A stretch of 63,889 bases of DNA, filler included, from Bilabrum cf. latius (taxonomy: Eukaryota), in the NCBI GenBank assembly GCA_965178125.1. It is 3 parts of 3 records of this genome, joined end to end, with 100 filler letters (N's around TTAATTAATTAA, not from the genome) between each part and the next. Parts side by side here need not be neighbours in the genome. Positions count along the whole stretch, not along the records: positions 24,429 to 48,578 come from CBCXTV010000042.1; 2 more parts are not named here. The stretch is one strand, 5' to 3'. Position 1 is the stretch's first letter. Every line of letters starts with the position of its first letter. Below are positions 24,429-63,889 of the stretch, piece after piece. Under the pieces are notes generated by a model. It saw only the letters and a program-made list of their open reading frames with translations, was not told the DNA's origin and did not search any database. Position numbers and translations under genes: made by a program.

Positions 24429-24515
24429 CCCTAACCCTAACCCTAACCCTAACCCTAACCCTAACCCTAACCCTAACCCTAACCCTAACCCTAACCCTAA
24501 CCCTAACCCTAACCT

Positions 24516-31983: not shown

Positions 31984-32294
31984 CCCTAACCCTAACCCTA
32001 ACCCTAACCCTAACCCTAACCCTAACCCTAACCCTAACCCTAACCCTAACCCTAACCCTAACCCTAACCCTAACCCTAACCCTAACCCTAACCCTAACCC
32101 TAACCCTAACCCTAACCCTAACCCTAACCCTAACCCTAACCCTAACCCTAACCCTAACCCTAACCCTAACCCTAACCCTAACCCTAACCCTAACCCTAAC
32201 CCTAACCCTAACCCTAACCCTAACCCTAACCCTAACCCTAACCCTAACCCTAACCCTAACCCTAACCCTAACCCTAACCCTTAACCCCCCCCCC

Positions 32295-33289: not shown

Positions 33290-33600
33290 CCCTAACCCTA
33301 ACCCTAACCCTAACCCTAACCCTAACCCTAACCCTAACCCTAACCCTAACCCTAACCCTAACCCTAACCCTAACCCTAACCCTAACCCTAACCCTAACCC
33401 TAACCCTAACCCTAACCCTAACCCTAACCCTAACCCTAACCCTAACCCTAACCCTAACCCTAACCCTAACCCTAACCCTAACCCTAACCCTAACCCTAAC
33501 CCTAACCCTAACCCTAACCCTAACCCTAACCCTAACCCTAACCCTAACCCTAACCCTAACCCTAACCCTAACCCTAACCCTAACCCTTAACCCCCCCCCC

Positions 33601-34595: not shown

Positions 34596-34698
34596 CCCTA
34601 ACCCTAACCCTAACCCTAACCCTAACCCTAACCCTAACCCTAACCCTAACCCTAACCCTAACCCTAACCCTAACCCTAACCCTAACCCTAACCCTACC

Positions 34699-36014: not shown

Positions 36015-36391
36015 CCCTAACCCTAACCCTAACCCTAACCCTAACCCTAACCCTAACCCTAACCCTAACCCTAACCCTAACCCTAACCCTAACCCTAACC
36101 CTAACCCTAACCCTAACCCTAACCCTAACCCTAACCCTAACCCTAACCCTAACCCTAACCCTAACCCTAACCCTAACCCTAACCCTAACCCTAACCCTAA
36201 CCCTAACCCTAACCCTAACCCTAACCCTAACCCTAACCCTAACCCTAACCCTAACCCTAACCCTAACCCTAACCCTAACCCTAACCCTAACCCTAACCCT
36301 AACCCTAACCCTAACCCTAACCCTAACCCTAACCCTAACCCTAACCCTAACCCTAACCCTAACCCTAACCCTAACCCTAACCCTAACCTAA

Positions 36392-36538
36392 ACCGAGGCA
36401 ACAATTGAAGAGAGGGACCGCGAGTTGGAAATGTTCGCAAACCTGATGACGGCCCTCGAGAAGACGGCGAAAGGAGATCTCAATGCGGCAGACGTCGACG
36501 CTGTGGAAGCGCTCCTAGCAGCTTTCGGTGACGAGTGA
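36392..36538 (+). pseudogene. 5'-truncated ORF tail (48 aa, acidic, probably helical)
   Basis: TEATIEERDRELEMFANLMTALEKTAKGDLNAADVDAVEALLAAFGDE-TGA, open from the telomere junction. Confidence 0.55.
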
Positions 36539-37926
36539 GAGGCAGGCAGGGGGACGGCAATTGAGGTCAGTGGCAGCTGGGCCAGCTTGTGAGAGGAGTT
36601 TGCCAAAGTGTCTGCCATTGACCCATTCGGACGCAGCATTAGGAGCCGGGAGGCATTCTGTTGAGTCTTGACGTGTCAACCAGTTAATACCTTAGATCAA
36701 AGCAATCCACACAGCAAATACAACTGTCATGTACACCATACCCATTCTACAATTGACAGATAAACCATGCATATTGAATAAACATGCAAATCTTCATACA
36801 CCCATATCGGCGCCGCGCGGCCAGAACGGAACCTGGGGAACATTTGGCCCATGTTGTGCTCCCAGGCCGTCCCGATGCAGTTTGAACGGTCTTCATATCA
36901 CCTGTAGTTGCCGAGATCGTAGCACGTCGTTTTTCGGTGTGAAATTCTTCATACACCCATATCGGCGCCGCGCGGCCAGAACGGAACCTGGGGAACATTT
37001 GGCCCATGTTGTGCCCCCAGGCCGTCCCGATGCAGTTTGAACGGTCTTCATATCACCTGTAGTTGCCGAGATCGTAGCACGTCGTTTTTCGGTGTGAAAT
37101 TCTTCATACACCCATATCGGCGCCGCGCGGCCAGAACGGAACCTGGGGAACATTTGGCCCATGTTGTGCCCCCAGGCCGTCCCGATGCAGTTTGAACGGT
37201 CTTCATATCACCTGTAGTTGCCGAGATCGTAGCACGTCGTTTTTCGGTGTGAAATTCTTCATACACCCATATCGGCGCCGCGCGGCCAGAACGGAACCTG
37301 GGGAACATTTGGCCCATGTTGTGCCCCCAGGCCGTCCCGATGCAGTTTGAACGGTCTTCATATCACCTGTAGTTGCCGAGATCGTAGCACGTCGTTTTTC
37401 GGTGTGAAATTCTTCATACACCCATATCGGCGCCGCGCGGCCAGAACGGAACCTGGGGAACATTTGGCCCATGTTGTGCCCCCAGGCCGTCCCGATGCAG
37501 TTTGAACGGTCTTCATATCACCTGTAGTTGCCGAGATCGTAGCACGTCGTTTTTCGGTGTGAAATTCTTCATACACCCATATCGGCGCCGCGCGGCCAGA
37601 ACGGAACCTGGGGAACATTTGGCCCATGTTGTGCCCCCAGGCCGTCCCGATGCAGTTTGAACGGTCTTCATATCACCTGTAGTTGCCGAGATCGTAGCAC
37701 GTCGTTTTTCGGTGTGAAATTCTTCATACACCCATATCGGCGCCACGCGGCCAGAACGGAACCTGGGGAACATTTGGCCCATGTTGTGCCCCCAGGCCGT
37801 CCCGATGCAGTTTGAACGGTCTTCATATCACCTGTAGTTACCGAGATCGTAGCACGTCGTTTTTCGACAAATATTGAAGATGAAAATATTTTTTCCCCGA
37901 CCCTGTCCCTGACTTTATATTAGATA
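36392..37926 (+). mobile_element. Telomeric cassette B-long (ORF tail, unique sequence, ~7 x 155-bp satellite B, terminus)
   Basis: Extends 296 bp further tip-ward than B copies 1 and 2; terminus 37865-37926. Confidence 0.72.
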
Positions 37927-38531
37927 CCCTAACCCTAACCCTAACCCTAACCCTAACCCTAACCCTAACCCTAACCCTAACCCTAACCCTAACCCTAACC
38001 CTAACCCTAACCCTAACCCTAACCCTAACCCTAACCCTAACCCTAACCCTAACCCTAACCCTAACCCTAACCCTAACCCTAACCCTAACCCTAACCCTAA
38101 CCCTAACCCTAACCCTAACCCTAACCCTAACCCTAACCCTAACCCTAACCCTAACCCTAACCCTAACCCTAACCCTAACCCTAACCCTAACCCTAACCCT
38201 AACCCTAACCCTAACCCTAACCCTAACCCTAACCCTAACCCTAACCCTAACCCTAACCCTAACCCTAACCCTAACCCTAACCCTAACCCTAACCCTAACC
38301 CTAACCCTAACCCTAACCCTAACCCTAACCCTAACCCTAACCCTAACCCTAACCCTAACCCTAACCCTAACCCTAACCCTAACCCTAACCCTAACCCTAA
38401 CCCTAACCCTAACCCTAACCCTAACCCTAACCCTAACCCTAACCCTAACCCTAACCCTAACCCTAACCCTAACCCTAACCCTAACCCTAACCCTAACCCT
38501 AACCCTAACCCTAACCCTAACCCTAACCCTA

Positions 38532-39146
38532 CCCATGATATGGCCCTAGGCCGTCCCAAAACAGTTTGAATCATCTTCATACCTATTCTAGTTGCTGAGA
38601 TCGCAGAGGGCACATTTTCGGCATGTAAATCTTCATCAGCCAGTATCGTCGCCGCGCGGTCAAAACGGAACCTGGGGAACACTTGCCCCATGATATGGCC
38701 CTAGGCCGTCCCAAAACAGTTTGAATCATCTTCATACCTATTCTAGTTGCTGAGATCGCAGAGGGCACATTTTCGGCATGTAAATCTTCATCAGCCAGTA
38801 TCGTCGCCGCACGGTCAAAACGGAACCTGGGGAACATTTGCCCCATGATATGGCCCTAGGCCATCCCAAAACAGTTTGAATCATCTTCATACCTATTCTA
38901 GTTGCTGAGATCGCAGAGGGCACATTTTCGGCATGTAAATCTTCATCAGCCAGTATCGTCGCCGCGCGGTCAAAACGGAACCTGGGGAACATTTGCCCCA
39001 TGATATGGCCCTAGGCCATCCCAAAACAGTTTGAATCATCTTCATACCTATTCTAGTTGCTGAGATCGCAGAGGGCACATTTTCGACAAAAAAATGAAGA
39101 TGAAAATATTTTTTCCCCGACCCTGTCCCTGACTTTATATTAGATA
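38532..39146 (+). mobile_element. Telomeric cassette D (~3.6 x 155-bp satellite D, terminus)
   Basis: Most diverged satellite variant; starts mid-unit; terminus 39084-39146. Confidence 0.7.
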
Positions 39147-39350
39147 CCCTAACCCTAACCCTAACCCTAACCCTAACCCTAACCCTAACCCTAACCCTAA
39201 CCCTAACCCTAACCCTAACCCTAACCCTAACCCTAACCCTAACCCTAACCCTAACCCTAACCCTAACCCTAACCCTAACCCTAACCCTAACCCTAACCCT
39301 AACCCTAACCCTAACCCTAAACCTAACCCCTAACCCTTAACCTAACCTAA

Positions 39351-39425: not shown

Positions 39426-39478
39426 CCCTAACCCTAACCCTAACCCTAACCCTAACCCTAACCCTAACCCTAACCTAA

Positions 39479-42220
39479 GAGTGGGCATGGCACTGTGCGG
39501 GGGACCTGTTGGGCGAGCGGCGGATGGTGGGGAGAGTGGGCATGGCACTGTGCGGGGGACCTGTTGGGCGAGCGGCGGATGGTGGGGAGAGTGGGCATGG
39601 CACTGTGCGGGGGACCTGTTGGGCGAGCGGCGGATGGTAGGGAGAGTGGGCATGGCACTGTGCGGGGGACCTGTTGGGCGAGCGGCGGATGGTAGGGAGA
39701 GTGGGCATGGCACTGTGCGGGGGACCTGTTGGGCGAGCGACGGAGGGTGTGGAGAGTGGGCATGGCACTGTGCGGGGGACCTGTTGGGCGAGCGGCGGAT
39801 GGTGGGGAGAGTGGGCATGGCACTGTGCGGGGGACCTGTTGGGCGAGCGGCGGATGGTGTGGAGAGTGGGCATGGCACTGTGCGGGGGACCTGTTGGGCG
39901 AGCGGCGGATGGTGGGGAGAGTGGGCATGGCACTGTGCGGGGGACCTGTTGGGCGAGCGGCGGATGGTAGGGAGAGTGGGCATGGCACTGTGCGGGGGAC
40001 CTGTTGGGCGAGCGGCGGATGGTGTGGAGAGTGGGCATGGTACTGTGCGGGGGACCTGTTGGGCGAGCGGCGGATGGTAGGGAGAGTGGGCATGGCACTG
40101 TGCGGGGGACCTGTTGGGCGAGCGGCGGATGGTGGGGAGAGTGGGCATGGCACTGTGCGGGGGACCTGTTGGGCGAGCGGCGGATGGTAGGGAGAGTGGG
40201 CATGGCACTGTGCGGGGGACCTGTTGGGCGAGCGGCGGAGGGTGTGGAGAGTGGGCATGGCACTGTGCGGGGGACCTGTTGGGCGAGCGGCGGATGGTAG
40301 GGAGAGTGGGCATGGCACTGTGCGGGGGACCTGTTGGGCGAGCGGCGGATGGTGGGGAGAGTGGGCATGGCACTGTGCGGGGGACCTGTTGGGCGAGCGG
40401 CGGAGGGTGTGGAGAGTGGGCATGGCACTGTGCGGGGGACCTGTTGGGCGAGCGGCGGATGGTAGGGAGAGTGGGCATGGCACTGTGCGGGGGACCTGTT
40501 GGGCGAGCGGCGGATGGTGGGGAGAGTGGGCATGGCACTGTGCGGGGGACCTGTTGGGCGAGCGGCGGATGGTGGGGAGAGTGGGCATGGCACTGTGCGG
40601 GGGACCTGTTGGGCGAGCGGCGGATGGTAGGGAGAGTGGGCATGGCACTGTGCGGGGGACCTGTTGGGCGAGCGGCGGATGGTGGGGAGAGTGGGCATGG
40701 CACTGTGCGGGGGACCTGTTGGGCGAGCGGCGGATGGTAGGGAGAGTGGGCATGGCACTGTGCGGGGGACCTGTTGGGCGAGCGACGGAGGGTGTGGAGA
40801 GTGGGCATGGCACTGTGCGGGGGACCTGTTGGGCGAGCGGCGGATGGTGTGGAGAGTGGGCATGGCACTGTGCGGGGGACCTGTTGGGCGAGCGGCGGAT
40901 GGTGGGGAGAGTGGGCATGGCACTGTGCGGGGGACCTGTTGGGCGAGCGGCGGATGGTGGGGAGAGTGGGCATGGCACTGTGCGGGGGACCTGTTGGGCG
41001 AGCGGCGGATGGTAGGGAGAGTGGGCATGGCACTGTGCGGGGGACCTGTTGGGCGAGCGGCGGATGGTGGGGAGAGTGGGCATGGCACTGTGCGGGGGAC
41101 CTGTTGGGCGAGCGGCGGATGGTAGGGAGAGTGGGCATGGCACTGTGCGGGGGACCTGTTGGGCGAGCGACGGAGGGTGTGGAGAGTGGGCATGGCACTG
41201 TGCGGGGGACCTGTTGGGCGAGCGGCGGATGGTGGGGAGAGTGGGCATGGCACTGTGCGGGGGACCTGTTGGGCGAGCGGCGGATGGTGGGGAGAGTGGG
41301 CATGGCACTGTGCGGGGGACCTGTTGGGCGAGCGGCGGATGGTGGGGAGAGTGGGCATGGCACTGTGCGGGGGACCTGTTGGGCGAGCGGCGGATGGTAG
41401 GGAGAGTGGGCATGGCACTGTGCGGGGGACCTGTTGGGCGAGCGGCGGATGGTGTGGAGAGTGGGCATGGCACTGTGCGGGGGACCTGTTGGGCGAGCGG
41501 CGGATGGTAGGGAGAGTGGGCATGGCACTGTGCGGGGGACCTGTTGGGCGAGCGGCGGATGGTGGGGAGAGTGGGCATGGCACTGTGCGGGGGACCTGTT
41601 GGGCGAGCGGCGGATGGTAGGGAGAGTGGGCATAGCACTGTGCGGGGGACCTGTTGGGCGAGCGGCGGAGGGTGTGGAGAGTGGGCATAGCACTGTGCGG
41701 GGGACCTGTTGGGCGAGCGGCGGATGGTAGGGAGAGTGGGCATGGCACTGTGCGGGGGACCTGTTGGGCGAGCGGCGGATGGTGGGGAGAGTGGGCATGG
41801 CACTGTGCGGGGGACCTGTTGGGCGAGCGGCGGAGGGTGTGGAGAGTGGGCATGGCACTGTGCGGGGGACCTGTTGGGCGAGCGGCGGATGGTGGGGAGA
41901 GTGGGCATGGCACTGTGCGGGGGACCTGTTGGGCGAGCGGCGGATGGTAGGGAGAGTGGGCATGGCACTGTGCGGGGGACCTGTTGGGCGAGCGGCGGAT
42001 GGTGGGGAGAGTGGGCATGGCACTGTGCGGGGGACCTGTTGGGCGAGCGGCGGATGGTAGGGAGAGTGGGCATGGCACTGTGCGGGGGACCTGTTGGGCG
42101 AGCGGCGGATGGTGGGGAGAGTGGGCATGGCACTGTGCGGGGGACCTGTTGGGCGAGCGGCGGATGGTAGGGAGAGTGGGCATGGCACTGTGCGGGGGAC
42201 CTGTTGGGCGAGCTGCGGAT
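39479..42220 (+). repeat. Subtelomeric 55-bp G-rich satellite, ~50 copies
   Basis: Unit gagtgggcatggcactgtgcgggggacctgttgggcgagcggcggatggt[gg/ag/gt]gga. Confidence 0.98.
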
Positions 42221-42387
42221 CCGGATGAGTTGGGCAGCACTGGGAAGAAGCCTCACCTGGATGGTCCGAAGCCAAGGGGATCATGTCATTCAATCCGTAA
42301 CAGAAGTGGGACACATGGATCACTTCGGTTCATGGAGCTGTTCAAATTTTTTGCTTTGCTTCAGTCAAGGCAGCAGAATTTTCTGGC

Positions 42388-44302
42388 TCAGAAGTGGATC
42401 GGGCTCGAGTATGCCGCCATGGCTGCCTCCTTGAAGGCCTCGCTCAATGTCGGATGCGCATGGCACGTCCGCGCAATGTCCTCGGCCGATGCACCGTACT
42501 CCATCCCCAGCACACCCTCGGCCACCATCTCGCCTGCATTGGGACCCACGATGTGCACACCCAGGATCCTATCCGTAGCCTTGTCGGTGAGGATCTTCAC
42601 AAGCCCGTCGGTCTCAAGCACGGCGCGTGCCCTGCTGTTGGCCTGGAAGGGGAAGGTCCCGCTCCTGAACTCGATGCCCTCCTCCTTGAGCTCCTCCTCG
42701 GTCTTGCCCACGCAAGCCACCTCGGGGTACGTGTAGATCACGTTAGGGATGGCGTCGTAATTCACGTGTCCGGCCAGCCCTGCGATGTTCTCCACTGCGG
42801 CGATGCCCTCCTCCTCCGCCTTGTGGGCCAGCATGGGCCCCTCCACTACGTCTCCGATGGCCCACACCCCCGGCACGTTGGTGCGGAACTCGTGGTCGAT
42901 CTCCACGCGGCCCATCTTATCCGTCTTAACGCCCACGTCCTCTAGCCCCAGGCCCTGGGTGAAGGGGCGGCGCCCCGTGGACACGAGTACGTGCGAGCAC
43001 TCGAGTGTCTTGGCCTCCCCGCCCGCGCTGGGCTCCACCGTGAGGGTGACTCCGTTCTCGCCCACCTCCGAGGCAGTCACCTTGGTCTTGAGGTTGAACT
43101 TCATTCCCTGCTTCTTAAGGATCTGCTGGAACTTCTTGCCCAGTTCCCCGTCCAGAGAGGGGACGATCCGGTCCAGAAACTCAACCACGGTCACCTTGGC
43201 TCCCAATCGGCGCCACACGGAGCCCATCTCGAGCCCGATCACGCCGCCGCCCACCACCACCAGATGCTCGGGCACCTCTGACAGCTCAAGGGCACCCGTG
43301 CTGTCCACGATGCGGCCTGCCTCGTTGTCCACGGGCACTGGGGGAAGCGGGGTCACCTCGGATCCAGTGGCCAGCAGCACGTTCTTGGTCGAGAGGGTCT
43401 GCGAGCCCCCGTCGGTCAGGGCCACTTCCACGGAGTTGGCGCCTGCTAGCTTGCCGAATCCCTTCACATAGTCCACCTTGTTCTTCTTGCAGAGGAACTC
43501 GATACCAGAGGTGAGCCCCTCCACGGTCTTGAGCTTGGAGGCCATCATAGCGTCCAGGTCCACGCTCACGTCGTTCACGATCACGCCGTGGTCTTTGAAA
43601 CCATGCGTGGCGTGCTCGTACAAGTGGCTCGAGTGCAGCAGGGCCTTAGAAGGAATGCACCCGACATTCAAGCAAGTTCCACCGAGTCTGCCGCGCGACT
43701 CGACCACTGCAGTCTTGAGCCCAAGCTGTCCTGCCTTGATAGCGGCCACGTACCCGCCTGGGCCCCCACCTACCACCACAACGTCGTACTGACCTGCAAC
43801 ACAATGATATGAGAAATAGCTGATCTGGCATGTGGGTTCGAAACAGCAAGTACGTAGCTCTCGATCCCAGTGTATACGCCGCATCTTCCCCGGTGGTTGC
43901 ATTGATGCTGTGAGCTTGGAGCACGCAATGCAGCGCAAATAACACGCAATTCTCAACAAGCGCAATGATGAAGAAGCCACTTACCGTCAGAAGCAGCTGC
44001 GGCAGCAGACATGGCTCTCGTCGAACTAGAGATGCGCATGCCGCGGGCGATCGCCGATACCTGCATCGTGCAGACACACCAGGGTGAAAGGCAAGCAAGT
44101 ATACTTAATCACACATAAAACACGATATAAGCCTGCAGCATCACTTCTGACCACGTTCCGAAGGAGGTGACCAAGGGCGTGATCAAGGTTCTTCCATTCG
44201 CAAATTCGCTCAAGTTCAACAGAGAACGGGTGGTTGCTGGGCACTACGCACGCAATATCTCACAGCAGACAAGCGACTAGCACGAGTGGCTACTGCAAAC
44301 AT
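42388..44302 (-). CDS. DLD: Dihydrolipoamide dehydrogenase (E3), mitochondrial precursor
   Basis: YDVVVVGGGPGGYVAA FAD motif, GGTCLNVGCIPSK redox disulfide, GGGVIGLE NAD motif and HAHPTLSE. Exons 44302-44264, 44060-43985 and 43793-42388 with GT-AG introns give an Arg/Ser/Ala-rich presequence (MFAVATRASRLSAVSAIARGMR...). Stop TGA. Confidence 0.97.
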
Positions 44303-44473
44303 GTTTGCAGGCAAGGGAGCTCAGTATATACGCCACGCCACTCCTCTGCATAAACCAGAGTTTCTGCAAGTTGCAGCTCGTTACAATATAGGCAACGGAT
44401 CGACCTTTTCAACACAAGCACATATTGGTTTCGTTGAGACTTTTCATCTACATCGCTGTGAGTTGCACTAAGA

Positions 44474-45099
44474 ATGGCTGCATCATCTGGTGTAGCAGCG
44501 GGTGGGGCTATTGATGATGCCTTCGAGGATGATTTCGACGTGGACGGTGCTGGTGTGAAAGTTGAACCAACGTACAAAACCAAGCCGGACGAGGACAAGC
44601 AGTGAGACAATACTCATTTTTGCTTCAGCTTATGCAATTCAGTCCCGACAATCTTGTCCTCCTCGGCTTGTTTCTCGGCCATCTGCAGGTTCATGCCATC
44701 GGTAGCTCGAGAGATTTGTAAGGAGGTAGTATCCAAGGTTCTGGACGGAAAGACTTGGCAAGGGGACGAAGAAACAGTATGGACTAGAGAAATTACCCAA
44801 GAAATTAGGAGGAGAGTGAAGGGAGAGATGGACTTACCGCGTTACAAGGTGGTCGTCCAGGTAGCATTGGGGGAGGTCAGATCTCAGTCCGTAAGGGTTG
44901 CAAGCAGGTGCTTGTGGGATGCTGAGGTAGACAACTATTCATCATATTCTTGGCATAACGTGAGTGCTCCAAGTTTTCGCGGTTTGGCATAAGGTGAGGA
45001 TTCAAAAGCACATCGCAACTCGTATCCCTGCCTTCCGGTCTAGTATCGCAGGATAGCTTGTGGTGTAGTGCGATGGTGTTTGCTTTGTACACTGAGTGA
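44474..45099 (+). CDS. Tctex1-domain dynein light chain (TCTEX1D-like)
   Basis: Exons 44474-44601, 44689-44959 and 45052-45099 with GTGAG...GCAG introns; motifs EPTY, LPRYKVVVQV, VRVASRCLWD..DNYSS, SLWCSAMVFALYTE. Stop TGA. Confidence 0.92.
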
Positions 45100-45370
45100 T
45101 TAATTTATAATTAGTTTCATTTGGTAGCTAGCGAAATCTGTGCGTTACGCGACACGCGTACTCGTGTGTAAGGGTATCCCATCTCGGATGGCTGACAGTG
45201 TCTGATCGCCGCATGCTTGGGTCGCTACGGCATCTAAGATCCAATACTACGGGCGCATACAGCTAGCTACACAAACGTGTGTTCGCTTGCAACTGCCACA
45301 AGATGTACCCCAATCCGGATTCGACTCTCGCTGAATTTCAAGACGCAGCAGCGCCCCCACCAGAAGCCCC

Positions 45371-47269
45371 TCACGTGCAAGCAGTGGCCCCCGCGCCGCG
45401 CAACACTGCCCACCCTGTCCCCATCGGAGGCACAGCGATCGACACGCTTCCATCTGGCCCCGGGGCCACGCTGGAAGGCACCCACGGGGGCAGCTCGTCG
45501 TTGGGGCCCAGCTGCAGTGGCTTGCCGTTCAGCTCTACCACGGGGCTGTACAGGTCCCCTCCCGACGGAGAGAGGGCGTACAGGTCCGCACTCGTCACAT
45601 CAGCACCAGCCCTCACGGTCAGGCGGATCGTGTCCAGAGTGGAGGCAGAGGCCCAGAACACCACCACATCGCCCGGGCCCGCACTCATGACACCATCTCC
45701 GCCAGCAGCGGCGCAGTGCGCGTAGGCCCTGAAGGTGCCGTTCAGGGGACCTCCTTGGAGCTGCGCCCCTCCGTCAGTGGTGGTGGCATGCAGCACGTTT
45801 GGCCCCACTAGTCGGTTGTAACCGAATCCGACCCAGTAGTCGGGAAACGGCTCGAAATTGCTCGTGTTGAGGAGCTCGTAGTGTCCCCCCACCAGCGTCT
45901 GTCGGTTGAAACCCACGACTCCCACTTTGGCCAACACCCCCAGAGCATCCAGGTAGTAGATGGAGGATGCGTAAGTGTTCGTCACACCGTCGATGCCGCC
46001 CCCGTTGTGGGGCCCGCCCTCGCCCAGCACGACTGGCCGAGGGGAAGGCAGGCCGACGGCGGTGTCGATCTCTTGGACCCACCCGACCAAGTCCACGGCC
46101 TGTTGTAGCGTGTTGTTTAGGAGCATGGGCCAGGTGGGTGGGTCGTTGTAGGAGTGAAACACTACGACGTCGATGGTTCCATCTCTGGCGGTGCGGTTCA
46201 GCGCAGGGAACCAGAAGTACGGCGCGTGGTCGAACGAGGGCTGCCCCGGGCACGGTCCGTAAGAGCCGGGCACGCCGGTCCGATCAGATTTAAACGCCTG
46301 ATCACGCACCTGCTTGAAGACGTCAAATGACTCCATGTAGCTCTCAAAGTCGCTGTCGTAGCTGCGTGGGTCAATCTCTTCACCAAGCTCGATCCCGTTC
46401 AAGACGCTAGCCTGCGTAGCGTTCTTGCCCACGTGCTCAAGAAAAGCCTGCGGGTTCGTCTTGTTCCACACCAGCTTTGTGCCGGATACCACAGGGTACG
46501 AGAGGCCCCACGTCAGGCTGGAGCCGGTGTATCGCATGAAATCGACAAACTCGGCCCAGCGCGTCATGTTGAGACAGAGACCGTTCCCTCCCTGCTCTCC
46601 GCATTGAGCAGGTGTCATATCCCCTACCAAGTACTTCACAGACTTGTCCAGCCCGCCACCGACACGAATGGTGCCGGGGCGAAGCGCCCTTGTCAGCTTG
46701 CGCAGGCGGGCATCTTGGAGGTCGATGTTCAGCAGGCCAGCGTTGCCCCAGCCGCCAGACGCCCCTCCACCCGGCGGCCACCAGTCCAATGTAACTCCCA
46801 TATACGTCGGTGGCAGCGTTCGGACTGGATCCGCGTCAGTTTTGATGTTCATCGCGACAGGAACGCTAGTTGGCAGAGGCGAAGGAGACGGACTGGGGGG
46901 CGGGGAATGGCCGCATCCCCCGCTCACTCGATTGGGTTCGCAATGATCAGGGTCATGCTACTAGTTGTCCTTGAGCCAGCAATTGTATGGGTCATCTGTC
47001 TCGATAGAAGCTGGAGGCGCCCATGTCCATGCGACGCAGCCTTGCGCACCTTTGCAATGGGTGCAGCAGTTCTCTGGAGTGTCCACGTTTGCGAGCTTTC
47101 CAAACTGATGTCCAGTGCCAATACACGTTGCTTTTTTCATGGCAGTGCAGGAGCAATCGCGGGTGGTGGGCGGGAACGATTGGGATCCAAGCGCTGACGT
47201 CGCCTGTTGCACGCAATTCATGGCTGCAAGCGACACAAAGCAAGAAAACGTGGCCGAAGCTACTTTCAT
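45371..47269 (-). CDS. Secreted PAN/apple + glycoside hydrolase family 79 (heparanase/beta-glucuronidase-like) protein with two in-frame TAG codons
   Basis: N-terminal hydrophobic leader; PAN motif CCTHC...CVAWTW...CWLK...NRVSG; Pro/Ser linker; GH79 motifs IRVGGG, ELGEE, LGEGG, YLDALG, RQTLVGGHYELL, PDYW. The two ORF-track segments share one frame across TAG TAG at 46963-46958. Stop TGA. Confidence 0.85.
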
Positions 47270-47689
47270 TGCGATTTTTCTTGTCCGGTAGAGGTTCTCC
47301 TACTAAGAAATGAAAGTACGCACTTGTCGGAATGAAAGGCGGATCGGATCGATCCGTCATCAGGGCGAGGTGCCTCATGATGGCCGGACTCGACCGGAGC
47401 AAATCGCCGCCGACCGGATCAGATGGATCGCTGAAGTGTGACGGCAGCGCACCATCCGGGCTGAAGCACGAGCACGTATCACCTGGGGGGCCATCTGTGC
47501 GAGATGATTGCCTGCGATCTTCGTCTACTTCTCTCGCAGCGGTGCCAACCGCGCGCACAGTCTCCATCCTGTCGGTCTTCACCATTATTCTGATACACCT
47601 TTCGTCCTCAAATTTTCCTCCTCCTCACCGACTTTAAGGCAGTCTAGCTCTGCCATGATGGCCTGCTAGCAGTGCATCATCACGTTGGA

Positions 47690-48577
47690 TCACAGGAGCA
47701 CTGCCTCCCGGTTGGCAAGCACGACATCCTTGGTCAGCATAGTTAGGTCGTTCCGGGTCAGGCTGCGGCTGCGTTGCAGCTCATCTAACCACTTGCACGG
47801 GTATTCCTTACTCAGCGTCACAGTACCGTCGGCCACCACGTACGTCGACAAATCCTCCGGCCTATCAGCCGGGGTAGCCGGCGAGCCAGGGGCTGCAGCA
47901 TGGGATCCAGAGGAAGCAGCTCCTGCTCCTGCTCCAGGTCTCGAGCCCTAAGACGTGCCCCCCGCCCCGGCCCGCCGCGCCGCAGCTCTGTCCCTGGTCC
48001 TCTGCACGGCCCTGGCCACCTCTCCCTCCAAGTGGTCCGCCCTCGACTCGAGCATCACTCGGGCCACTTGAGGGGCAGGCCGGCGGGTCGAGCACACGGG
48101 GCACCTGATCTTGCTCCACAGATTCATCGCGGTGCACTCGCACACGTAGTGCGTGGGAGCACCCTTCTTGCGAAGGGCCTTGCGGATCTTCTGAGCCTGC
48201 GCATGCTGTGGCTTCCACCGGGATGGGACCTCGGTGTCTTTGAACGACTTGGCCTTGCGACGGGCTGCGCGCCCCCCGCTGGCTGGGCCCGCCAAGGCCG
48301 CAGCCACGGCTGCCTCCTCCGCCGCCAGTGCCTCCTCTGCCCTGAGTCGGGCTTTCACATCGCACTAGGCGCCTCTTTCCAGCTCTTGCTGCAGCGTCTG
48401 GCGATGGACACCGGCCGATTTAGCTGACAATCCGGCATTTCTGGGCAGCGGGCCTCCTCGGGGAAGCACCAACTGGAAGGGGGCGGCCACCGGCGTCAGG
48501 CTGCGGCCCACAAAGTCGTACAGCGCCGCAAGGGTCAGGCGAGGGGAGGATCGGACCGTGACGAGGTCAGGCTGAGA
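47690..48577 (-). CDS. Partial UBX-like + RanBP2-type zinc-finger protein with two in-frame TAG codons
   Basis: One frame from the contig end: LTLAALYDFV...PFQLVLP...LSAKSAGVHRQTLQQE (UBX-like), TAG 48367-48365, YVCECTAMNLWSKIRCPVCSTRRP, TAG 47950-47948, then 85 more codons to TGA. The true 3' end may involve another exon. Confidence 0.6.
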
Positions 48578-48578
48578 C

Positions 48579-48678
48579 NNNNNNNNNNNNNNNNNNNNNN
48601 NNNNNNNNNNNNNNNNNNNNNNTTAATTAATTAANNNNNNNNNNNNNNNNNNNNNNNNNNNNNNNNNNNNNNNNNNNN
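48579..48678. other. Artificial contig spacer
   Basis: N44 + TTAATTAATTAA + N44. Confidence 0.99.
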
Positions 48679-48992: not shown

Positions 48993-50594
48993 TCACGGCA
49001 TGGCCGCCGAGGGGTGAGCGCGATCGCGGGGGGTCCATCCGTTTAGTCTGCGGCCACGAGGCACGCGGCGAGCGTTACCACCGTGGACGCCTCCGTCGAC
49101 CGCGTGTCCGGACGCGACTGGGGCCCTGTTGATGAGCGCATCGTGCGGGAGAGGCTGCTGCGGACTGCTGATGAAGCGGAGCTGGTCGACAGACGGAGCA
49201 TCGCTGGAGATGTCCTCCATGTCACACTCAAACAAGCGCCGTAGGGTCGAATGCAAGCGGCGCCTGCCGCTGGTAATGCCTGTCATATCGAAAGCGCCTT
49301 GCCACGAGCCAGACGAGAGCACTCTCTTCGTGCACTCAGCGACAACCCTGAGATGGCAAGAGACATCGACATGACCCGCTTCATGACGCGAGCGCTCCTG
49401 CATCCACGTCTCCCGAAGGTCGCGCTTAAGAAGCTGAAAGACGAGAACGTCCAACGGCTGAAGCAGGAAGGTGAGTCGACCAGGAATAAACACGAGATCC
49501 ATGCCAAGGCCGTGTGCGAAGTTCACAATCTCAGTGGAAATGTGTTGGGGCGCGCAGTCAAGTATCACTATTGGATAGATCTCATGCTGAATGTCCATCC
49601 AAGAAGCGAAAAGCCGACGCAGAATGTCGAACATGAGGGACTGCGTCACCCACGAGCTCTCTCGGGCCCAGACTTCCATTCCGTCCACCATTTGGTTCGG
49701 CGCCCCACGCATCAAGCGCTTGCTCAGCCGCGTGTGCTTCCCGATGAGTATACGCGGGAGTCGTCGCTGGATTTCCGGGCAGTCGCTAATAAAACCCAGA
49801 AAGGTGTACGATCCTCGATTGCTATTCGAGGCGAGGCGCTCCGTGCGCGAACCAAGCGAAGCGGGCTCCGTTCCTGACCTCGGTGCGATGTACCCGCGCA
49901 TTCCCGGAAAGGCAAAGGGCACGCTGGACTCATCGAAATTCACAAAGACGAGGCGGCGGTTGGGGGGCACTCGCGCTTCTGCGAATTCAATCCACTGATA
50001 GAAGACACGACACGCGAGTCTGACGTAATCGAGTGTTACCGGGGGCTGCTTCTTCAATCGGCCATGCCGAAGCCGCCAACGACGACGGAAGCGCAGGAGC
50101 CACTGCCGTCGAGCCGAGTCCTTCCCCGCGCGAACGCCCATCCTCGCAAGCATGGCGAAAACCATGTTCCCAGTTGGAGCACACCCACGCTGCTCGTTCA
50201 CATGGTCGATCCAAGCAACGACAGAAGCCTCGGCGAGAAAGGTCTCTGCGCGTGCCACGGACTCTCGATGACATGAGCGAAGAGGATTTCGCTGCCACGC
50301 CTCAGCTGGGCGCCTCATGGTGAGCGCGACCTCCTCATCGACCTGCCTTTGAAACTCCTCCTGCGAAGCCGTCCGCGTGGAAACCTGTCGACTCTGCAAC
50401 TGACGAGAGACATAGGTTCGAAGAGCTGCCTCGCCACCGCCGGGGTGATGACGAATAACCTCAGCGACCTGTGCCTCCATGGCGCGCAACCACGGATGGC
50501 GCAGCCCATTGCGCGCCCGTTGTCTCGCGTCTCTGAGACACTTCAGCTCCTTACTGATCCGTGCGAGCTGATCCGGCACCGAAGCAGAGGACAT
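48993..50594 (-). mobile_element. pogo/Tigger-like (CENP-B HTH + DDE_1) transposase ORF
   Basis: Intact ORF with WLLRFRRRW, VNFDES, SSWVT, ILDCAPQH and FIPGRLTFLLQPLDV..F..LK motifs (DDD triad). First ATG at 50594. TIRs not identified. Confidence 0.88.
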
Positions 50595-51168
50595 TATGAC
50601 GCGTGAGGAACCGGGCAGAAGATCGCTCACAGCCGAAACGACGCGGACGGACCCGCTGCCAAGCTTCGCACTGCCTGTGGCCTCTGAAGATACCCGGGAG
50701 GGATAGGACGCAGGCGGGGAGCGAGAGCAAGCGAATGCCTTCCTGTCGCTGGAGGAGTGCTCAAAGCTGAAGACGCACGGGAAGCACCCGCTCTGCTGCG
50801 GTCACACTGGCGCAAGCGAGACAAAACCAGGGAGCGGGATAGACACGTGCACAGCATTGAATACACCTCGCAGCATTGCGAGCGCGGTTTCTCGCCTGCG
50901 CTGAGCTGCCACTCTGCTCTCGTGCGGACGACATTGGCAACGGCAGCGCGTAGCTGCCAACTGGCCATGCACGGGTACTGTATCGGCCACGGCAGCGCTG
51001 AGCTGCCAATTTCGGGTCGAGGAGCTCTCCTGAGGAAGACGAGGCCGGGAACTTTCGGCGAACACGCACACCCACCACCGCCCGGCACATGCGACGGCAA
51101 GCAATGTAAGGAACGACGTTGCGCGATCGAATCTCGACAGGAGGCTCCGATGCAGGAGCTGCCGAGGA

Positions 51169-52791: not shown

Positions 52792-53800
52792 TCACGCTGG
52801 CATCGTGAGGAGGAACCTTTCCGCATTCTGGAGAAGCTCCATGGCCCGCTTGATGTCATCCAAGGCCTCGTCACGCGAAGAAACTCTGACGCACGGCGTT
52901 GCTGCAGGAGGCGGCGCCTCCTGCAGGAAGCTCGTCGCGTGCGGGAGCACGAGCGTCGTTGTCGCCGTCACCGGTATTCGCGCCAGCTTTTGGCACCCAA
53001 CGCTTCGCTTCACCCGCAGAGGAACGGACATCATGGAGACTCCAGCCACGCGCAACCAGGCACTTCGCGCACCAGTCCTCAGGGAAGAAATAGCGCAAGT
53101 TCTCCTTCTTCCGGCGGATCTGGGGAAATCGGTACGCCGGATACTCGTTTTTGCAGCTCTTGCACCACACCCACCACGGCGTCGCGTTGTCGAACTTGTC
53201 GCAACACACCCGGCAAACTGGTTGGATCCAGTCCTTCCACTTCTTAAAGTACGCCGACCGGGGCTTGCAGCACTGGCACGCGTTGCAAGTCCATGTCGCC
53301 TCCTCCGCCGGCTCCGACGCGACCTGCCGCAGCACGTACGTCTCCCCCCATGACGACTTCGCAGGGGTCCCCCATTGATCCCAGCTATCAGCGCCAGAGA
53401 CCGCCCCGGCTGCCACGCCGCCACCCGCCTTCCAAGCTGCTGCGTTGGTCCATACGTCGTCATTACCTCCGGGCACCACAGCACGTCCACCGCCGCGAGC
53501 ATCCTCCTCCTCCGTCTTCTTGCCGCCGTCGTCTTCGGCGTCCTCCTTCGGCGCTGCCTTGCCGCTCTCCTCTCCGAGCATCCCCGTGGACGCCGCCTCC
53601 GCGCCGCCGCTCTCGATGTGGGGGCCGAGCGAATCATCGACGCTTGCCGCCGCGCCGGCGTGCTCCGCCGGCGCGTCGACCTCGCGCGCCAACATGCCGC
53701 CCTCGTTTCCCATATCACCGGCGCCTCGACGCGCACGAAGATTGCGGCCGTCTCCCAAGGAAACAGCAATGCTCTCGGACGGTTTCTCCTCAGACATCAT
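52792..53800 (-). pseudogene. Cys-rich zinc-finger-like protein, copy 1 (frameshifted, truncated)
   Basis: WTCNACQCCK...CRVCCD...WCKSCK...WCAKC; 52815-53960 is duplicated at 57113-58260 (offset 4299). Confidence 0.55.
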
Positions 53801-54034
53801 CGGCAAAGAGACTCGGAGAATGCCGTTCCCGCAGAGTGCGCTGCTGACTGCCGAAGCCGAAAGAGGACCCGCGGAGAAGGAATCTCGCACATGCTCCCAG
53901 GAAAAGCAACTCCCCGCCCATTCCGAATGCAAGAACGGACTCCCGCCCTTTCCGAGATCGAGAGCGCATCGCGGGCGCATTTCCCGACTCGCGATCGGCC
54001 TCGGAAACCGACCACGAATCGGTAGGAGACGTGC

Positions 54035-54370
54035 GCCCGCGTTTGAAGAATACGCGGAGAAATACGAAGCCAAGGACACGAGCATCTCCCGGGCACCTTT
54101 CCCGACTCGCAGCCGGTCTCAGAGACGACCACGAATCGGCACGACAAGTGCGCCCGATTTCGTCCCCCGAAAAAGGACACAACTAGGACCCCGCGGAGAT
54201 CCGCATCTGCTCCTCACGCGCGGAACGTGTTTCGGTACGCAAAAAGCGGTCACATGGGAGGCCCGGAAAGCGTCCGGAAAACGGTTCAGAAATAGTACCG
54301 TCGTTTTCCGGGTCACCTTTTTCGGTCTCGAAATGGGAATCGGATTTGGGACAGGAATTGAAGCGGAGAA
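54035..54370 (+). repeat. ~335-bp segment duplicated at 55615-55948
   Basis: gcccgcgtttgaagaata...gggacaggaattgaagcggagaa is present twice. Confidence 0.9.
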
Positions 54371-56549: not shown

Positions 56550-58100
56550 TTACATACCGGCCCTTGGAACGTGTCGAAGATGCGGCGCCAGACGCAGCGT
56601 TCGAAGCTTCGGTTCGGGATCCGCATCTTCAGGAGCGCCTTCCTCCCCTCCGGGCTGATGAGATACCACTTTAGGCCCATGCCCACGTGGAAGGGGACCA
56701 CAAATGTGTTGTCTACCCAGTGCGCCGGATAGGTCCGCACGTCCAAGAGGCGCTCGCAGTTGTGCATGAGGTGAGTTTCCGCGCTGGAGGCTGACCATTC
56801 TCGGTGCTTCTGACCCCGCTAACATGGCCATCTGCGTCACCTTGGGGTTTCGCGATGGCGTGAAGAACTACGAGTAGCCGATCCACGCATGCTTCGCGAG
56901 GTTCGATATCATCCTCGACAACCATGAGCCATTCCGTCGGCCCACAGCCATGCGTTTCGATAGGATTGGATCGCCCCAAGAGTGGCCGGATGGTATTTGA
57001 TCCAGTCCGTTATCTTGCCGGAGAAGATATCCAAGAGGGCCTGGTCTTTGACGATGCCCTGCATCAACTGGTCCTGCACCGCACACTGCATGCACGATGG
57101 CATCGCGGAGATGAATTTCTCCGCATTCCGGAGAAGCTCCATGGCCCGGTTGATGTCATCCAAGGCCTCGTCACGCGAAGAACTCTGATGCACGGCGTTG
57201 CTGCAGGAGGCGGCGCCTCCTGCAGGAAGCTCGTCGCGTGCGGGAGCACGAGCGTCGTTGTCGCCGTCACCGGTATTCGCGCCAGCTTTTGGCACCCAAC
57301 GCTTCGCTTCACCCGCAGAGGAACGGACATCATGGAGACTCCAGCCACGCGCAACCAGGCACTTCGCGCACCAGTCCTCAGGGAAGAAATAGCGCAAGTT
57401 CTCCTTCTTCCGGCGGATCTGGGGAAATCGGTACGCCGGATACTCGTTTTTGCAGTTCTTGCACCACACCCACCACGGCGTCGCGTTGTCGAACTTGTCG
57501 CAACACACCCGGCAAACTGGTTGGATCCAGTCCTTCCACTTCTTGAAGTACGCCGACCGGGGCTTGCAGCACTGGCACGCGTTGCAAGTCCATGTCGCCT
57601 CCTCCGCCGGCTCCGACGCGACCTGCCGCGGCACGTACGTCTCCCCCCATGACGACTTCGCAGGGGTCCCCCATAGAGCCCAGCTATCAGCGCCAGAGAC
57701 CGCCCCGGCTGCCACGCCGCCACCCGCCTTCCAAGCTGCTGCGTCGGTCCATACGTCGTCATTACCTCCGGGCACCACAGCACGTCCACCGCCGCGAGCA
57801 TCCTCCTCCTCCGTCTTCTTGCCGCCGTCGTCTTCGGCGTCCTCCTTCGGCGCTGCCTTGCCGCTCTCCTCTCCGAGCATCCCCGTGGACGCCGCCTCCG
57901 CGCCGCCGCTCTCGATGTGGGGGCCGCCCGAATCATCGACGCTTGCCGCCGCGCCGGCGTGCTCCGCCGGCGCGTCGACCTCGCGCGCCAACATGCCGCC
58001 CTCGTTTCCCATATCACCGGCGCCTCGACGCCCACGAAGATTGCGGCCGTCTCCCAAGGAAACAGCAATGCTTTCAGACGGTTTCTCCTCAGACATCATC
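56550..58100 (-). pseudogene. Cys-rich zinc-finger region followed by a frameshifted glycosyltransferase family 25-like region
   Basis: Zinc-finger copy 2 continues into PATLGAIQSYRNAW; after frameshifts come WLMVVEDDIEP and GMGLKWYLISPEGRKALL, matching the order of GT25 motifs GC..SH...W / LEDD / YlIS..GA.KLL. Confidence 0.5.
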
Positions 58101-63870: not shown

Positions 63871-63889
63871 CGCGAGGCCTGTCGGAAGG

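What the first reader, a model, noticed from the sequence alone, without database searches (positions are those of the whole stretch)
46927..47269. Tandem in-frame TAG TAG inside a PAN domain: candidate UAG stop-to-sense reassignment
Seen: CWLKDN-TAG-TAG-HDPDHCEPNRVSGGC keeps frame and completes the PAN motif before an intact 518-codon GH79 region. The clear gene ends in this contig (DLD, Tctex, GH79, telomeric ORF tail) are all TGA. Established: nuclear UAG reassignment, alone or with UAA, is known in a few protist lineages (ciliates, Iotanema, a rhizarian). Inference: a variant nuclear code, with Gln plausible from context. Caveats: DLD and Tctex contain no TAG, and the status of TAA cannot be judged here.
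Basis: partly seen in the sequence, partly recalled or inferred. Interest (0 to 1): 0.85.

Follow-up and report, generated by a model that had tools for sequence, protein, structure and literature searches.

The report
In-frame UAG codons in two genes
Two neighbouring, transcribed and otherwise intact genes of a stramenopile-like protist each carry two in-frame TAG codons, which most likely means that this organism reads UAG as an amino acid, although decaying genes near the chromosome end are not excluded.

Summary
TAG TAG lies at 46958-46963 (minus strand), in frame, as codons 103-104 of a 632-codon secreted PAN + GH79 gene (47269..45374, stop TGA).

- **Not an error, intron or editing.** One DNA assembly and three RNA-like assemblies carry exactly these letters in unbroken contigs. 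The same RNA-like runs splice the four introns of the two neighbouring genes.
- **One gene, not two.** Uninterrupted homologs keep the same architecture. A conserved strand and cysteine of the PAN module lie after the TAGs. The GH79 part shows no relaxed constraint.
- **New evidence.** The next gene upstream (UFD1-like, 47693-48577, minus) has two more in-frame TAGs, and homolog alignments run straight across both. One TAG seems shared with a 95%-identical relative; the other faces Leu there.
- **Tally.** In-frame TAG 4, TAA 0, TGA 0 in 1581 codons of four genes. All four genes end in TGA.

I favour UAG as a sense codon (about 0.6). The main rival is two transcribed subtelomeric pseudogenes (about 0.28).

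The amino acid is undetermined, and Gln is not specifically supported. No genome, tRNA(CUA), eRF1 or peptide data could be examined. A distant ortholog (51% identity) ends in TAG.

The parts
46958..46963 (-). Tandem in-frame TAG TAG, codons 103-104 of the PAN + GH79 gene
   Evidence: Sequence; translation. The same letters stand in DNA contig X1 record 4 and in RNA-like contigs X5 record 11, X6 record 17 and X7 record 25. There is no other-letter row and no joint at this place.
45371..47269 (-). PAN + GH79 coding region: ATG at 47267-47269, 632 codons, stop TGA at 45371-45373
   Evidence: ORFs; translation; Pfam. Uninterrupted full-length homologs are P0001 (610 aa, 52-53% identity) and the ORF on L001 (51%).
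46970..47092 (-). PAN_4 match (residues 60-100); it ends at CWLK, before the TAGs
   Evidence: E 1.7e-8, profile positions 13-51 of 51.
46913..46927 (-). Conserved V-S-G-G-C (residues 115-119), predicted last strand of the PAN module with its cysteine, lying after the TAGs
   Evidence: S-G-x-C is kept in P0001, P0006, P0008 and L001, and with an insertion in P0007. The AlphaFold2 model has a strand at 115-119, mean pLDDT 71 for residues 111-120.
45938..46825 (-). GH79 N-terminal (catalytic) domain match, residues 149-444
   Evidence: E 2.3e-25. The window differs from the consensus at 2 of 79 columns that are at least 90% conserved.
45122..47287 (-). Extent of the unspliced transcript contig covering the whole gene
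   Evidence: X5 record 11, 2189 nt, depth 61.5, 0 other letters, 0 gaps, adapter sequence beyond 47287.
47693..48577 (-). C-terminal 295 codons of the neighbouring UFD1-like / zinc-finger gene. It runs off the contig end at 48578 and stops with TGA at 47690-47692
   Evidence: Translation. 12 homologs with E up to 1e-3; alignment A3. Homologs carry UFD1_N1/N2 and UQ_con matches. RNA-like contig X5 record 12 (2914 nt) covers 47309-47700 and continues beyond the laid stretch.
48365..48367 (-). In-frame TAG, codon 71 of the visible part of the UFD1-like gene
   Evidence: DNA reads GGC GCC TAG TGC GAT GTG. BLASTP to P0189 runs continuously over it with K opposite (E 5e-19). Of the 8 homologs with a residue in that column, 4 have E, and one each has K, A, T and R. 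P0184 starts at the GTG three codons later.
47948..47950 (-). In-frame TAG, codon 210 of the visible part of the UFD1-like gene
   Evidence: DNA reads ACG TCT TAG GGC TCG. P0184 aligns without a gap over it (190 of 199 identical) and has Leu opposite.
42388..44330 (-). Dihydrolipoamide dehydrogenase gene: 506 codons, no in-frame TAG, stop TGA at 42388-42390, introns 43792-43982 and 44059-44261
   Evidence: Pfam; joints in X5, X6 and X7; translation; tally.
44474..45099 (+). Tctex-type dynein light chain gene: 148 codons, no in-frame TAG, stop TGA at 45097-45099, introns 44602-44688 and 44960-45051
Evidence: Joints; translation.

Best explanation
In this organism UAG is translated as an amino acid rather than ending translation.

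Under this reading, the PAN + GH79 mRNA is read from the ATG at 47269 through the two UAGs to the UGA at 45373-45371. The product is a 632-residue secreted protein made of a signal-like N-terminus, a PAN/Apple module, a Pro/Ser linker and a heparanase-like GH79 glycosidase. The neighbouring UFD1-like gene is read through its two UAGs in the same way.

Inferred, not shown:
- A tRNA with anticodon CUA, or strong near-cognate decoding, inserts the residue.
- The release factor eRF1 no longer ends translation at UAG.
- UGA is the working terminator. The status of UAA is unknown.
- The inserted amino acid cannot be named from four variable positions. Leu, Glu and Gln are all compatible with single positions.

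Shown: the codons, their presence in mature mRNA, the continuity of homology across them, and the intactness of what follows.
For: 1. The TAG TAG is real and stays in the mRNA.
- DNA run X1 has an identical 4606-nt contig across the site.
- Runs X5, X6 and X7 come from two other studies. They hold spliced forms of all four introns of DLD and Tctex (joints with GT..AG ends in 3 of 3 of these runs and 0 of 1 in X1), so they contain RNA.
- These three runs cover the site with contigs of 2189, 1202 and 643 nt, with no joint and no other letter at 46958-46963.
- In X5 the depth is 61.5, against 2 for a DLD intron remnant.
- The contigs are unbroken, so no second allele of notable depth shows.

2. 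It is one gene.
- P0001 and the L001 ORF are uninterrupted PAN + GH79 proteins of the same length in this segment: 19 residues from K of CWLK to the conserved cysteine.
- S-G-x-C after the TAGs is conserved and is modelled as a strand of the PAN module.

3. No decay is visible. The window departs at 2 of 79 highly conserved columns; the other 20 sequences depart at 0 to 12. All 39 invariant columns of A2 are kept.

4. An independent second case exists.
- The next gene has in-frame TAGs at codons 71 and 210.
- Both are spanned by gap-free homolog alignments, so they are not introns.
- P0184, a 95%-identical relative on a 28-kb contig, begins at the first start-capable codon after TAG71. This suggests the same stop-like codon there (inference). 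It has Leu at TAG210.

5. Tally: in-frame TAG 4, TAA 0, TGA 0 in 1581 codons of four genes. There are no frameshifts, and 4 of 4 genes end in TGA.
Against: - Only four codons in two adjacent genes, about 23 kb from a telomere. Such regions are rich in decaying genes, and a diverged partial copy of the DLD 3' part exists elsewhere (X1 record 2).
- DLD (506 codons), Tctex (148) and a transposase ORF (602) have no TAG.
- The two TAGs in GH79 are adjacent, which also fits a single mutational event.
- If the lesions were random nonsense mutations, 4 of 4 being TAG has probability about 0.10 from these genes' codon usage. That count alone is therefore weak.
- The residues opposite the TAGs do not agree on one amino acid.
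- The ortholog on L001 (51% identity, 70% GC) ends with TAG, so TAG is a stop in that relative.
- No tRNA gene lies in the window, and no genome is held.
- Retention of the two TAGs of the neighbouring gene in RNA was not seen, because the laid stretch ended at 47700.
- My three searches found no nuclear stop-codon reassignment reported for stramenopiles, so the prior is low.
Confidence: 0.6

Rival explanations
1. The code is standard. Both genes are recently disabled, still-transcribed pseudogenes or null alleles in a subtelomeric region. The PAN + GH79 mRNA would yield only a 102-residue PAN fragment, and the UFD1-like mRNA a truncated protein.
For: - The genes lie 23 to 24 kb from a (CCCTAA)n chromosome end, behind about 15 kb of satellite.
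- A diverged partial DLD copy shows that pieces of this region are duplicated elsewhere (X1 record 2, 22 differences in 229 nt).
- TAG is the commonest single-step nonsense outcome for this codon usage (0.55 to 0.57).
- The adjacent TAG TAG fits one event, such as a 6-base insertion. P0006 and P0008 are two residues shorter here in alignment A1.
- The 10 amino-acid differences between the window and P0184 are nearly all single-base changes. That is also compatible with drift (my reading).
- The L001 ortholog uses TAG as its stop.
- Nuclear code changes are rare.
Against: - Two neighbouring genes would each need two lesions, all of them TAG, with no frameshift and no TGA or TAA in 927 codons.
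- The GH79 part is as conserved as its functional homologs (2 of 79).
- The near-invariant C-terminal motif of the UFD1-like family is intact.
- TAG71 appears to be shared with a 95% relative whose following 222 codons are still open.
- Both mRNAs are present at depths of the same order as the neighbours' (61.5 and 42.1 against 109.9 for Tctex in X5). Contig depth is a poor measure of expression.
- No intact paralog of at least 90% identity was laid in DNA run X1 over 42804-47700.
Confidence: 0.28
2. UAG is still mainly a stop, but it is read through at particular sites. This would be programmed or context-dependent readthrough, or an ambiguous code in which position on the mRNA decides. Both short and long products would then be made.
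For: The mRNA keeps the UAGs. Both the 102-residue PAN product and the full-length protein are conceivable products. Position-dependent stop/sense codes are known in some ciliates and trypanosomatids (recalled; only the abstract listing of PMC12152300 was seen).
Against: - Two stops in tandem would multiply two low readthrough efficiencies.
- The bases after the four TAGs are T, C, T and G, with no common context.
- The last PAN strand and its cysteine lie after the TAGs, so the short product would be an incomplete domain.
- The known readthrough motifs, recalled as UAG-CAR-YYA and UGA-CUAG, are absent.
Confidence: 0.07
3. There are two cistrons. A small PAN protein ends at a deliberate tandem stop, and a separate GH79 protein starts at the internal ATG (MNIKTD..., codon 140).
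For: Pfam PAN_4 is complete before the TAGs. An ATG lies 36 codons after them. The database's automatic gene calls for some homologs (P0002, P0004) start near that point.
Against: - The DNA behind one of those truncated calls (P0003, on L001) shows an uninterrupted PAN + GH79 ORF, so the short forms are gene-calling artefacts.
- A single transcript covers both parts.
- A GH79 starting at MNIKTD would lack a signal peptide.
- The Pro/Ser linker and S-G-x-C between the two parts are conserved as coding sequence.
Confidence: 0.03
4. Sequencing or assembly error, an intron, or RNA editing removes the TAGs.
For: None found.
Against: Four runs from three studies carry identical letters. There is no joint and no other-letter row at the site in RNA-like contigs that do show the four neighbouring introns.
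Confidence: 0.02

Closest known systems
UAG-only nuclear reassignments: rhizarian exLh (UAG = Leu) and Iotanema spirale (UAG = Gln), Panek et al. 2017, PMC5304391 (abstract and outline read)
   Same: UAG lies in frame inside conserved nuclear genes while UGA still ends genes. The change concerns UAG alone as far as can be seen. One of the four positions here faces Leu in a 95% relative.
   Different: - Those cases rest on transcriptome-wide codon tables; this one rests on 4 codons in 2 genes.
- The amino acid is not determined here.
- The status of UAA is unknown here.
- The organism is stramenopile-like: 8 of 8 named proteins among the 120 listed best DLD matches are stramenopiles, at 70-73% identity.
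UAG = Leu or Gln in phyllopharyngean ciliates, McGowan et al. 2024, PMC11687900 (abstract and outline read)
   Same: Repeated, independent capture of UAG as a sense codon in protists, found by mining public assemblies.
   Different: There, suppressor tRNA genes were identified and UAA is the preferred stop. Here no tRNA is available and all four gene ends seen are UGA.
Transcribed unitary pseudogene or nonsense allele in a subtelomere
   Same: Premature stop codons in an expressed gene near a chromosome end.
   Different: No frameshift, no other kind of stop, no excess of changes at conserved columns, and a second gene with the same kind of codon.
PAN/Apple + GH79 (heparanase-like) secreted glycosidases of protists: P0001, P0006, P0008 and the L001 ORF
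   Same: Same domain order, same C-x-C ... CWLK ... S-G-x-C pattern, same GH79 invariant residues.
   Different: Only the window's gene has stop-like codons inside. The nearest homolog is only 52-53% identical.

Membership tests
Nuclear UAG stop-to-sense reassignment | In-frame UAG at positions spanned by homology in several independent conserved genes | tested here: met
   4 codons in 2 of the 4 homology-supported genes of this contig. Alignments are continuous over all four. The sample is small and the two genes are adjacent.
Nuclear UAG stop-to-sense reassignment | UAG retained in mature mRNA (not spliced out, not edited) | tested here: met
   Met for the GH79 pair: RNA-like contigs of 3 runs, with no joint and no other letter. 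Not examined for the two TAGs of the neighbouring gene, because the laid stretch ended at 47700.
Nuclear UAG stop-to-sense reassignment | UAG not used as a terminator at conserved C-termini | tested here: inconclusive
   0 of 4 gene ends are TAG; all are TGA. Four genes are too few, and TGA is 2.8 to 4.3 times as common as TAG by composition.
Nuclear UAG stop-to-sense reassignment | One consistent amino acid opposite UAG in alignments | tested here: inconclusive
   The residues opposite are A/V/M, D/R/Q, E(4 of 8)/K/A/T/R, and L/S/G. All four sites are in variable linkers.
Nuclear UAG stop-to-sense reassignment | Cognate tRNA with anticodon CUA | not testable with these tools
   0 tRNA genes in the window; no genome is held.
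Nuclear UAG stop-to-sense reassignment | eRF1 changes that abolish UAG recognition | not testable with these tools
   eRF1 is not in the window and no genome is held.
Transcribed pseudogene | Mixed lesions (frameshifts, several kinds of stop) and relaxed constraint after the first lesion | tested here: not met
   No frameshift, no TAA or TGA in 927 codons. The window departs at 2 of 79 conserved columns, within the range of 0-12 for the homologs.
Transcribed pseudogene | Intact functional copy elsewhere, or loss of function tolerated | not testable with these tools
   No paralog of at least 90% identity was laid in DNA run X1 over 42804-47700. More diverged copies cannot be excluded without the genome.
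Spliceosomal intron | GT..AG segment absent from mRNA | tested here: not met
   No joint at 46958-46963 in X5, X6 or X7, which do show the four neighbouring introns.
Programmed stop-codon readthrough | A single leaky stop in a stimulating 3' context | tested here: not met
   Tandem stops; the following bases differ among the four sites. The known motifs are recalled, not taken from a call.
PAN/Apple + GH79 glycoside hydrolase | Pfam PAN_4 and Glyco_hydro_79n matches above the curated cut-offs in one reading frame | tested here: met
   PAN_4 34.8 bits (cut-off 27) and GH79n 89.7 bits (cut-off 23.1). The AlphaFold2 model has mean pLDDT 81.7 and pTM 0.81.

The most novel reading that the evidence does not exclude
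A stramenopile-like protist has captured UAG as a nuclear sense codon while UGA ends its genes. As far as my three literature searches show, this would be the first nuclear stop-codon reassignment in that supergroup. It would also be recent, because an ortholog in a distant relative (51% identity) still ends in TAG. At this stage the new codon sits only in variable linkers and is avoided in highly expressed genes.
Probability: 0.55. Interest if true: 0.85.

Novelty: new member of a known kind. Interest (0 to 1): 0.72.

Why it matters
Nuclear genetic-code changes are few, and each new lineage tests ideas about how a stop codon is captured: by codon disappearance, through an ambiguous intermediate, or by tRNA and eRF1 co-evolution.

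If this holds, it would be a case outside ciliates, metamonads and rhizarians. It would sit in a GC-rich genome where TAG is rare, with a distant relative (51% identity) still using TAG as a stop. That would give an apparently young reassignment in which intermediates may still be visible.

There is also a practical side. Gene calls for this organism made with the standard code would be split or truncated. The two genes here are absent from, or fragmentary in, the protein collections I searched.

If instead both genes are pseudogenes, the finding is ordinary.

Tried and rejected
- **Whole genome.** None is held, so no Codetta-like tabulation, tRNA(CUA) search or eRF1 search was possible.
- **tRNA scan of the window.** 0 genes.
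- **Earlier findings of the scan.** Nothing by place (near or relatives) or by words.
- **RNA holders.** The look-up of sequencing runs listed no holder on record as RNA. I infer the RNA nature of X5-X7 only from their spliced contigs.
- **Small-share runs X8-X14.** They could hold relatives, but the single read-laying run was already spent.
- **Uncovered parts and contig depths.** Parts without cover are not used as evidence, and contig depths are not used as evidence about expression level.
- **Other ORFs of the window.**
  - Pfam on 10 + 9 long ORFs of the three contigs gave only DLD families, DDE_1 (transposase ORF 48996-50801) and sub-threshold hits.
  - Reading all three + frames of 10000-19500 with every stop as X gave 0 families.
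  - No further conserved genes were therefore available to enlarge the codon sample.
  - A codon-usage scan marked coding-like stretches in contig 1 (for example 15753-16712, an ORF ending in TAA). Without homologs they say nothing on the code.
- **ESM Atlas on P0184.** No usable hit.
- **Last word-index search on the UFD1-like ORF.** It returned only P0184.
- **In-frame intron from the GT at 47049 to the AG of the second TAG.** It would be 92 nt, not a multiple of three; it would delete the PAN core; and it is not seen in RNA.
- **Transposon-footprint and 3-base-duplication origins of TAGTAG.** Every 3-base deletion that restores a single copy still leaves an in-frame TAG. A 6-base insertion remains possible (my reading).
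- **Ribosome hopping.** Considered and dropped: there is no matching take-off and landing codon next to the stops.
- **Supplementary files of the two code papers.** These could give typical UAG codon frequencies for comparison.
Full report
**1. What the window is**

The 63,889-base window is three contigs joined by N44-TTAATTAATTAA-N44 linkers at 24329-24428 and 48579-48678.

The finding lies on the middle contig (24429-48578), which runs as follows:
- It begins with a (CCCTAA)n telomere.
- About 15 kb of a 155-bp satellite follows, alternating with internal telomere-repeat blocks.
- Then comes a 55-bp repeat at 39478-42220.
- Then come four genes: DLD (minus strand), a Tctex-type dynein light chain (plus), the PAN + GH79 gene (minus), and the 3' part of a UFD1-like gene (minus) that runs off the contig end.

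No whole genome is held for this window, and the window has no tRNA gene.

**2.

The minus strand reads AAG GAC AAC TAG TAG CAT GAC. The TAGs are codons 103 and 104 from the ATG at 47269.

Pfam gives PAN_4 at residues 60-100 and Glyco_hydro_79n at residues 149-444. TAGTAG occurs three times in the window on both strands.

**3. It is one gene, and the part after the TAGs belongs to it**

Of 63 homologs found with E up to 1e-3, P0001, P0006 and P0008 carry both Pfam domains. P0007 has the same N-terminal pattern in the alignment.

The contig behind the truncated database entry P0003 was fetched as L001. Its DNA shows an uninterrupted ORF running signal-PAN-linker-GH79, with CWLKTN-AD-PNPGPC at the place of the TAGs. 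The short database forms are therefore gene-calling artefacts.

- With the two TAG codons counted, the window has the same 19 residues between the K of CWLK and the conserved S-G-x-C cysteine as P0001 and L001.
- In alignment A1, P0006 and P0008 are two residues shorter there.

An AlphaFold2 model was built on a 21-sequence alignment with TAG read by table 15 (mean pLDDT 81.7, pTM 0.81).
- It places residues 115-119 (V-S-G-G-C) as a strand after the PAN strands at 57-60, 78-83 and 95-101.
- The two TAG-coded residues sit in a low-confidence loop; the mean pLDDT of residues 101-110 is 54.

So the Pfam PAN_4 profile ends before the TAGs, but the conserved module does not.

**4. Not an error, an allele mixture, an intron or editing**

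One search for sequencing runs listed 15 runs, 7 of which hold at least half of the sampled words. I laid X1, X5, X6 and X7, from three studies, on 42300-47700.

- X1 gives an identical 4606-nt contig over 42804-47409.
- X5, X6 and X7 each hold contigs that skip 43792-43982 and 44059-44261 (the DLD introns, CT..AC on the plus strand) and 44602-44688 and 44960-45051 (the Tctex introns, GT..AG). X1 has none of these joints. Whatever their label, X5-X7 therefore contain spliced RNA.
- In these three runs the PAN + GH79 gene is covered by unspliced contigs:
  - X5, 45122-47287, 2189 nt, 0 other letters, depth 61.5, with adapter sequence beyond the end;
  - X6, 46093-47294;
  - X7, 46483-47125, with 1 other letter that is not listed as lying away from the contig's end.
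- No other-letter row, indel or joint is reported at 46958-46963.
- An intron remnant of DLD in X5 has depth 2, so the depth of 61.5 is not DNA background.
- The contigs do not break at the site, so no second allele of notable depth is visible.

Contigs drop rare variants, so rare forms are not excluded.

**5. No sign of decay**

In a 21-sequence alignment the window keeps all 39 invariant columns. It departs from the consensus at 2 of 79 columns that are at least 90% conserved among the others. The other 20 sequences depart at 0 to 12.

**6. A second, independent case next door**

Reading the frame 47693-48577 (minus) gives 295 codons ending in TGA, with TAG at codons 71 and 210.

An exhaustive HMMER search found 12 proteins with E up to 1e-3. 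They share three features:
- a conserved stretch around Q-x-E-L ... C-D;
- a C-x-C ... N ... C-x-x-C zinc-finger-like motif;
- a C-terminal G-G-T-V-x-L-C ... H-x-C-x-W-L-x-E-L domain.

The long members carry UFD1_N1/N2 and UQ_con matches.

- BLASTP of the window ORF against P0189 is continuous across codon 71, with K opposite (44% identity, E 5e-19).
- Of the 8 homologs with a residue in that column, 4 have E, and one each has K, A, T and R.
- P0184 (222 aa, from a 28-kb contig, the only close relative found) is 190 of 199 identical. It aligns without a gap across codon 210 and has Leu there.
- P0184 starts with M at the window's GTG, the first start-capable codon after TAG71 (GCC TAG TGC GAT GTG). 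The simplest reading is that its ORF is bounded by a stop-like codon at the same place. That is an inference, because its DNA could not be fetched.

An RNA-like contig of 2914 nt (X5, depth 42.1) covers 47309-47700 and runs on beyond the laid stretch. The gene is therefore probably transcribed, but retention of these two TAGs in RNA was not seen.

**7. Tally and its limits**

| Gene | Codons | In-frame TAG |
|---|---|---|
| Tctex | 148 | 0 |
| DLD | 506 | 0 |
| PAN + GH79 | 632 | 2 |
| UFD1-like (visible part) | 295 | 2 |
| Total | 1581 | 4 |

There is no in-frame TAA or TGA and no frameshift, and all four genes end in TGA.

Three points limit what this shows:
- From these genes' codon usage, a random single-base nonsense change gives TAG with probability 0.55-0.57. 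'Four of four are TAG' therefore has probability about 0.10 under a pseudogene model, and less if frameshifts are counted as equally likely lesions (my estimate).
- TGA is 2.8 to 4.3 times as frequent as TAG as a trinucleotide in the non-telomeric contigs.
- No further conserved genes could be found in the other two contigs to enlarge the sample.

**8. Who is it**

Eight of the 120 listed best DLD matches carry an organism name, and all eight are stramenopiles at 70-73% identity: Helicotheca, Chrysophaeum, Chaetoceros, Chrysoparadoxa, Tribonema, Pythium, Thalassiosira and Nitzschia. Unnamed matches reach 76-79%, and one reaches 90%.

The best named GH79 matches are diatoms, at 32-34% identity. 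The organism has GT..AG introns of 87-203 nt and TTAGGG-type telomeres.

I call it stramenopile-like. No tree was built.

**9. Weighing**

For sense reading:
- real codons kept in mRNA;
- homology running across all four;
- intact and conserved downstream parts;
- two genes hit by the same kind of codon and by nothing else;
- one TAG probably shared with a 95% relative;
- only TGA at gene ends.

Against:
- a tiny sample from one subtelomeric neighbourhood, where a diverged DLD fragment shows duplication;
- two adjacent TAGs, which could be one mutational event;
- no agreement on the amino acid;
- TAG ends the ortholog on L001;
- no tRNA or eRF1 data;
- no published nuclear reassignment in stramenopiles in my three searches.

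I put UAG-as-sense at about 0.6, transcribed pseudogenes at about 0.28, site-specific readthrough at about 0.07, and the remaining ideas at about 0.05 together.

**10. Comparison with what is known**

UAG-only reassignments are documented in:
- a rhizarian (UAG = Leu) and Iotanema (UAG = Gln), with UAA and UGA kept as stops (PMC5304391, abstract);
- phyllopharyngean ciliates (Leu or Gln, with suppressor tRNAs; PMC11687900, abstract).

The present case would work like these. As a member of that class it meets two defining features: in-frame UAG across homology, and retention in mRNA. It is inconclusive on two (terminator usage, a consistent residue) and untestable on two (tRNA, eRF1).

If true, it is a new lineage for a known kind of change, apparently young.

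**11. Verdict**

Gln is not specifically supported. The decisive test is a genome- or transcriptome-wide codon tabulation with the runs that hold this organism.

Noticed in passing
24329-24428 and 48579-48678: The window is three contigs joined by artificial linkers (44 N, TTAATTAATTAA, 44 N). Neighbours across these points need not be adjacent in the genome.
   Followed up: yes
24429-39347: A chromosome end: (CCCTAA)n from the contig's first base, then about 14.5 kb of a 155-bp satellite alternating many times with internal blocks of perfect telomere repeat (up to 101 units at 37926-38531).
   Followed up: partly
39478-42220: A 55-bp tandem repeat of about 50 copies at about 70% GC, with strong GC skew. 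It is open in all three minus-strand frames, which gives spurious ORFs of 925-985 codons. The longest ends in TAA, not TGA.
   Followed up: partly
42455-42837: DNA run X1 holds a second contig that is about 90% identical to part of the DLD coding 3' region (22 differences in 229 nt) and then runs on unlike the window. This is a diverged partial copy of this region elsewhere in the genome.
   Followed up: no
45122-45130: The transcript contigs of the convergent Tctex (+) and PAN + GH79 (-) genes end within 9 bases of each other and overlap slightly.
   Followed up: no
47300-47305 (minus strand): A second TAG TAG in the same frame, 10 codons upstream of the ATG. It lies at or just beyond the 5' ends of the transcript contigs (47287-47301).
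   Followed up: partly
154-647, 5113-5844, 8725-9219, 13043-13615: Long arrays of an 11-bp repeat (ACAAAGTGAAC-like, on both strands) scattered over the first contig.
   Followed up: no
48996-50801 (minus); 52871-54118 and 56909-58330 (minus): The third contig carries a pogo-like DDE_1 transposase ORF (602 codons, no TAG, ends in TGA). It also carries two near-identical copies of a Cys-rich ORF of unknown family. A similar ORF at the window's end (63188-63889) has a weak sub-threshold Stc1 hit (E 0.033).
   Followed up: partly
L001:3562-5343: A 70% GC metagenome contig holds the uninterrupted ortholog (51% identity) and ends it with TAG. The database protein P0003 from this contig is truncated to the GH79 part by gene calling.
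   Followed up: yes
15717-16766 (plus): A 349-codon ORF with codon-position GC like the real genes (0.62/0.43/0.74) and no family match. It ends in TAA. If it is a real gene, TAA would be a stop in this organism.
   Followed up: partly
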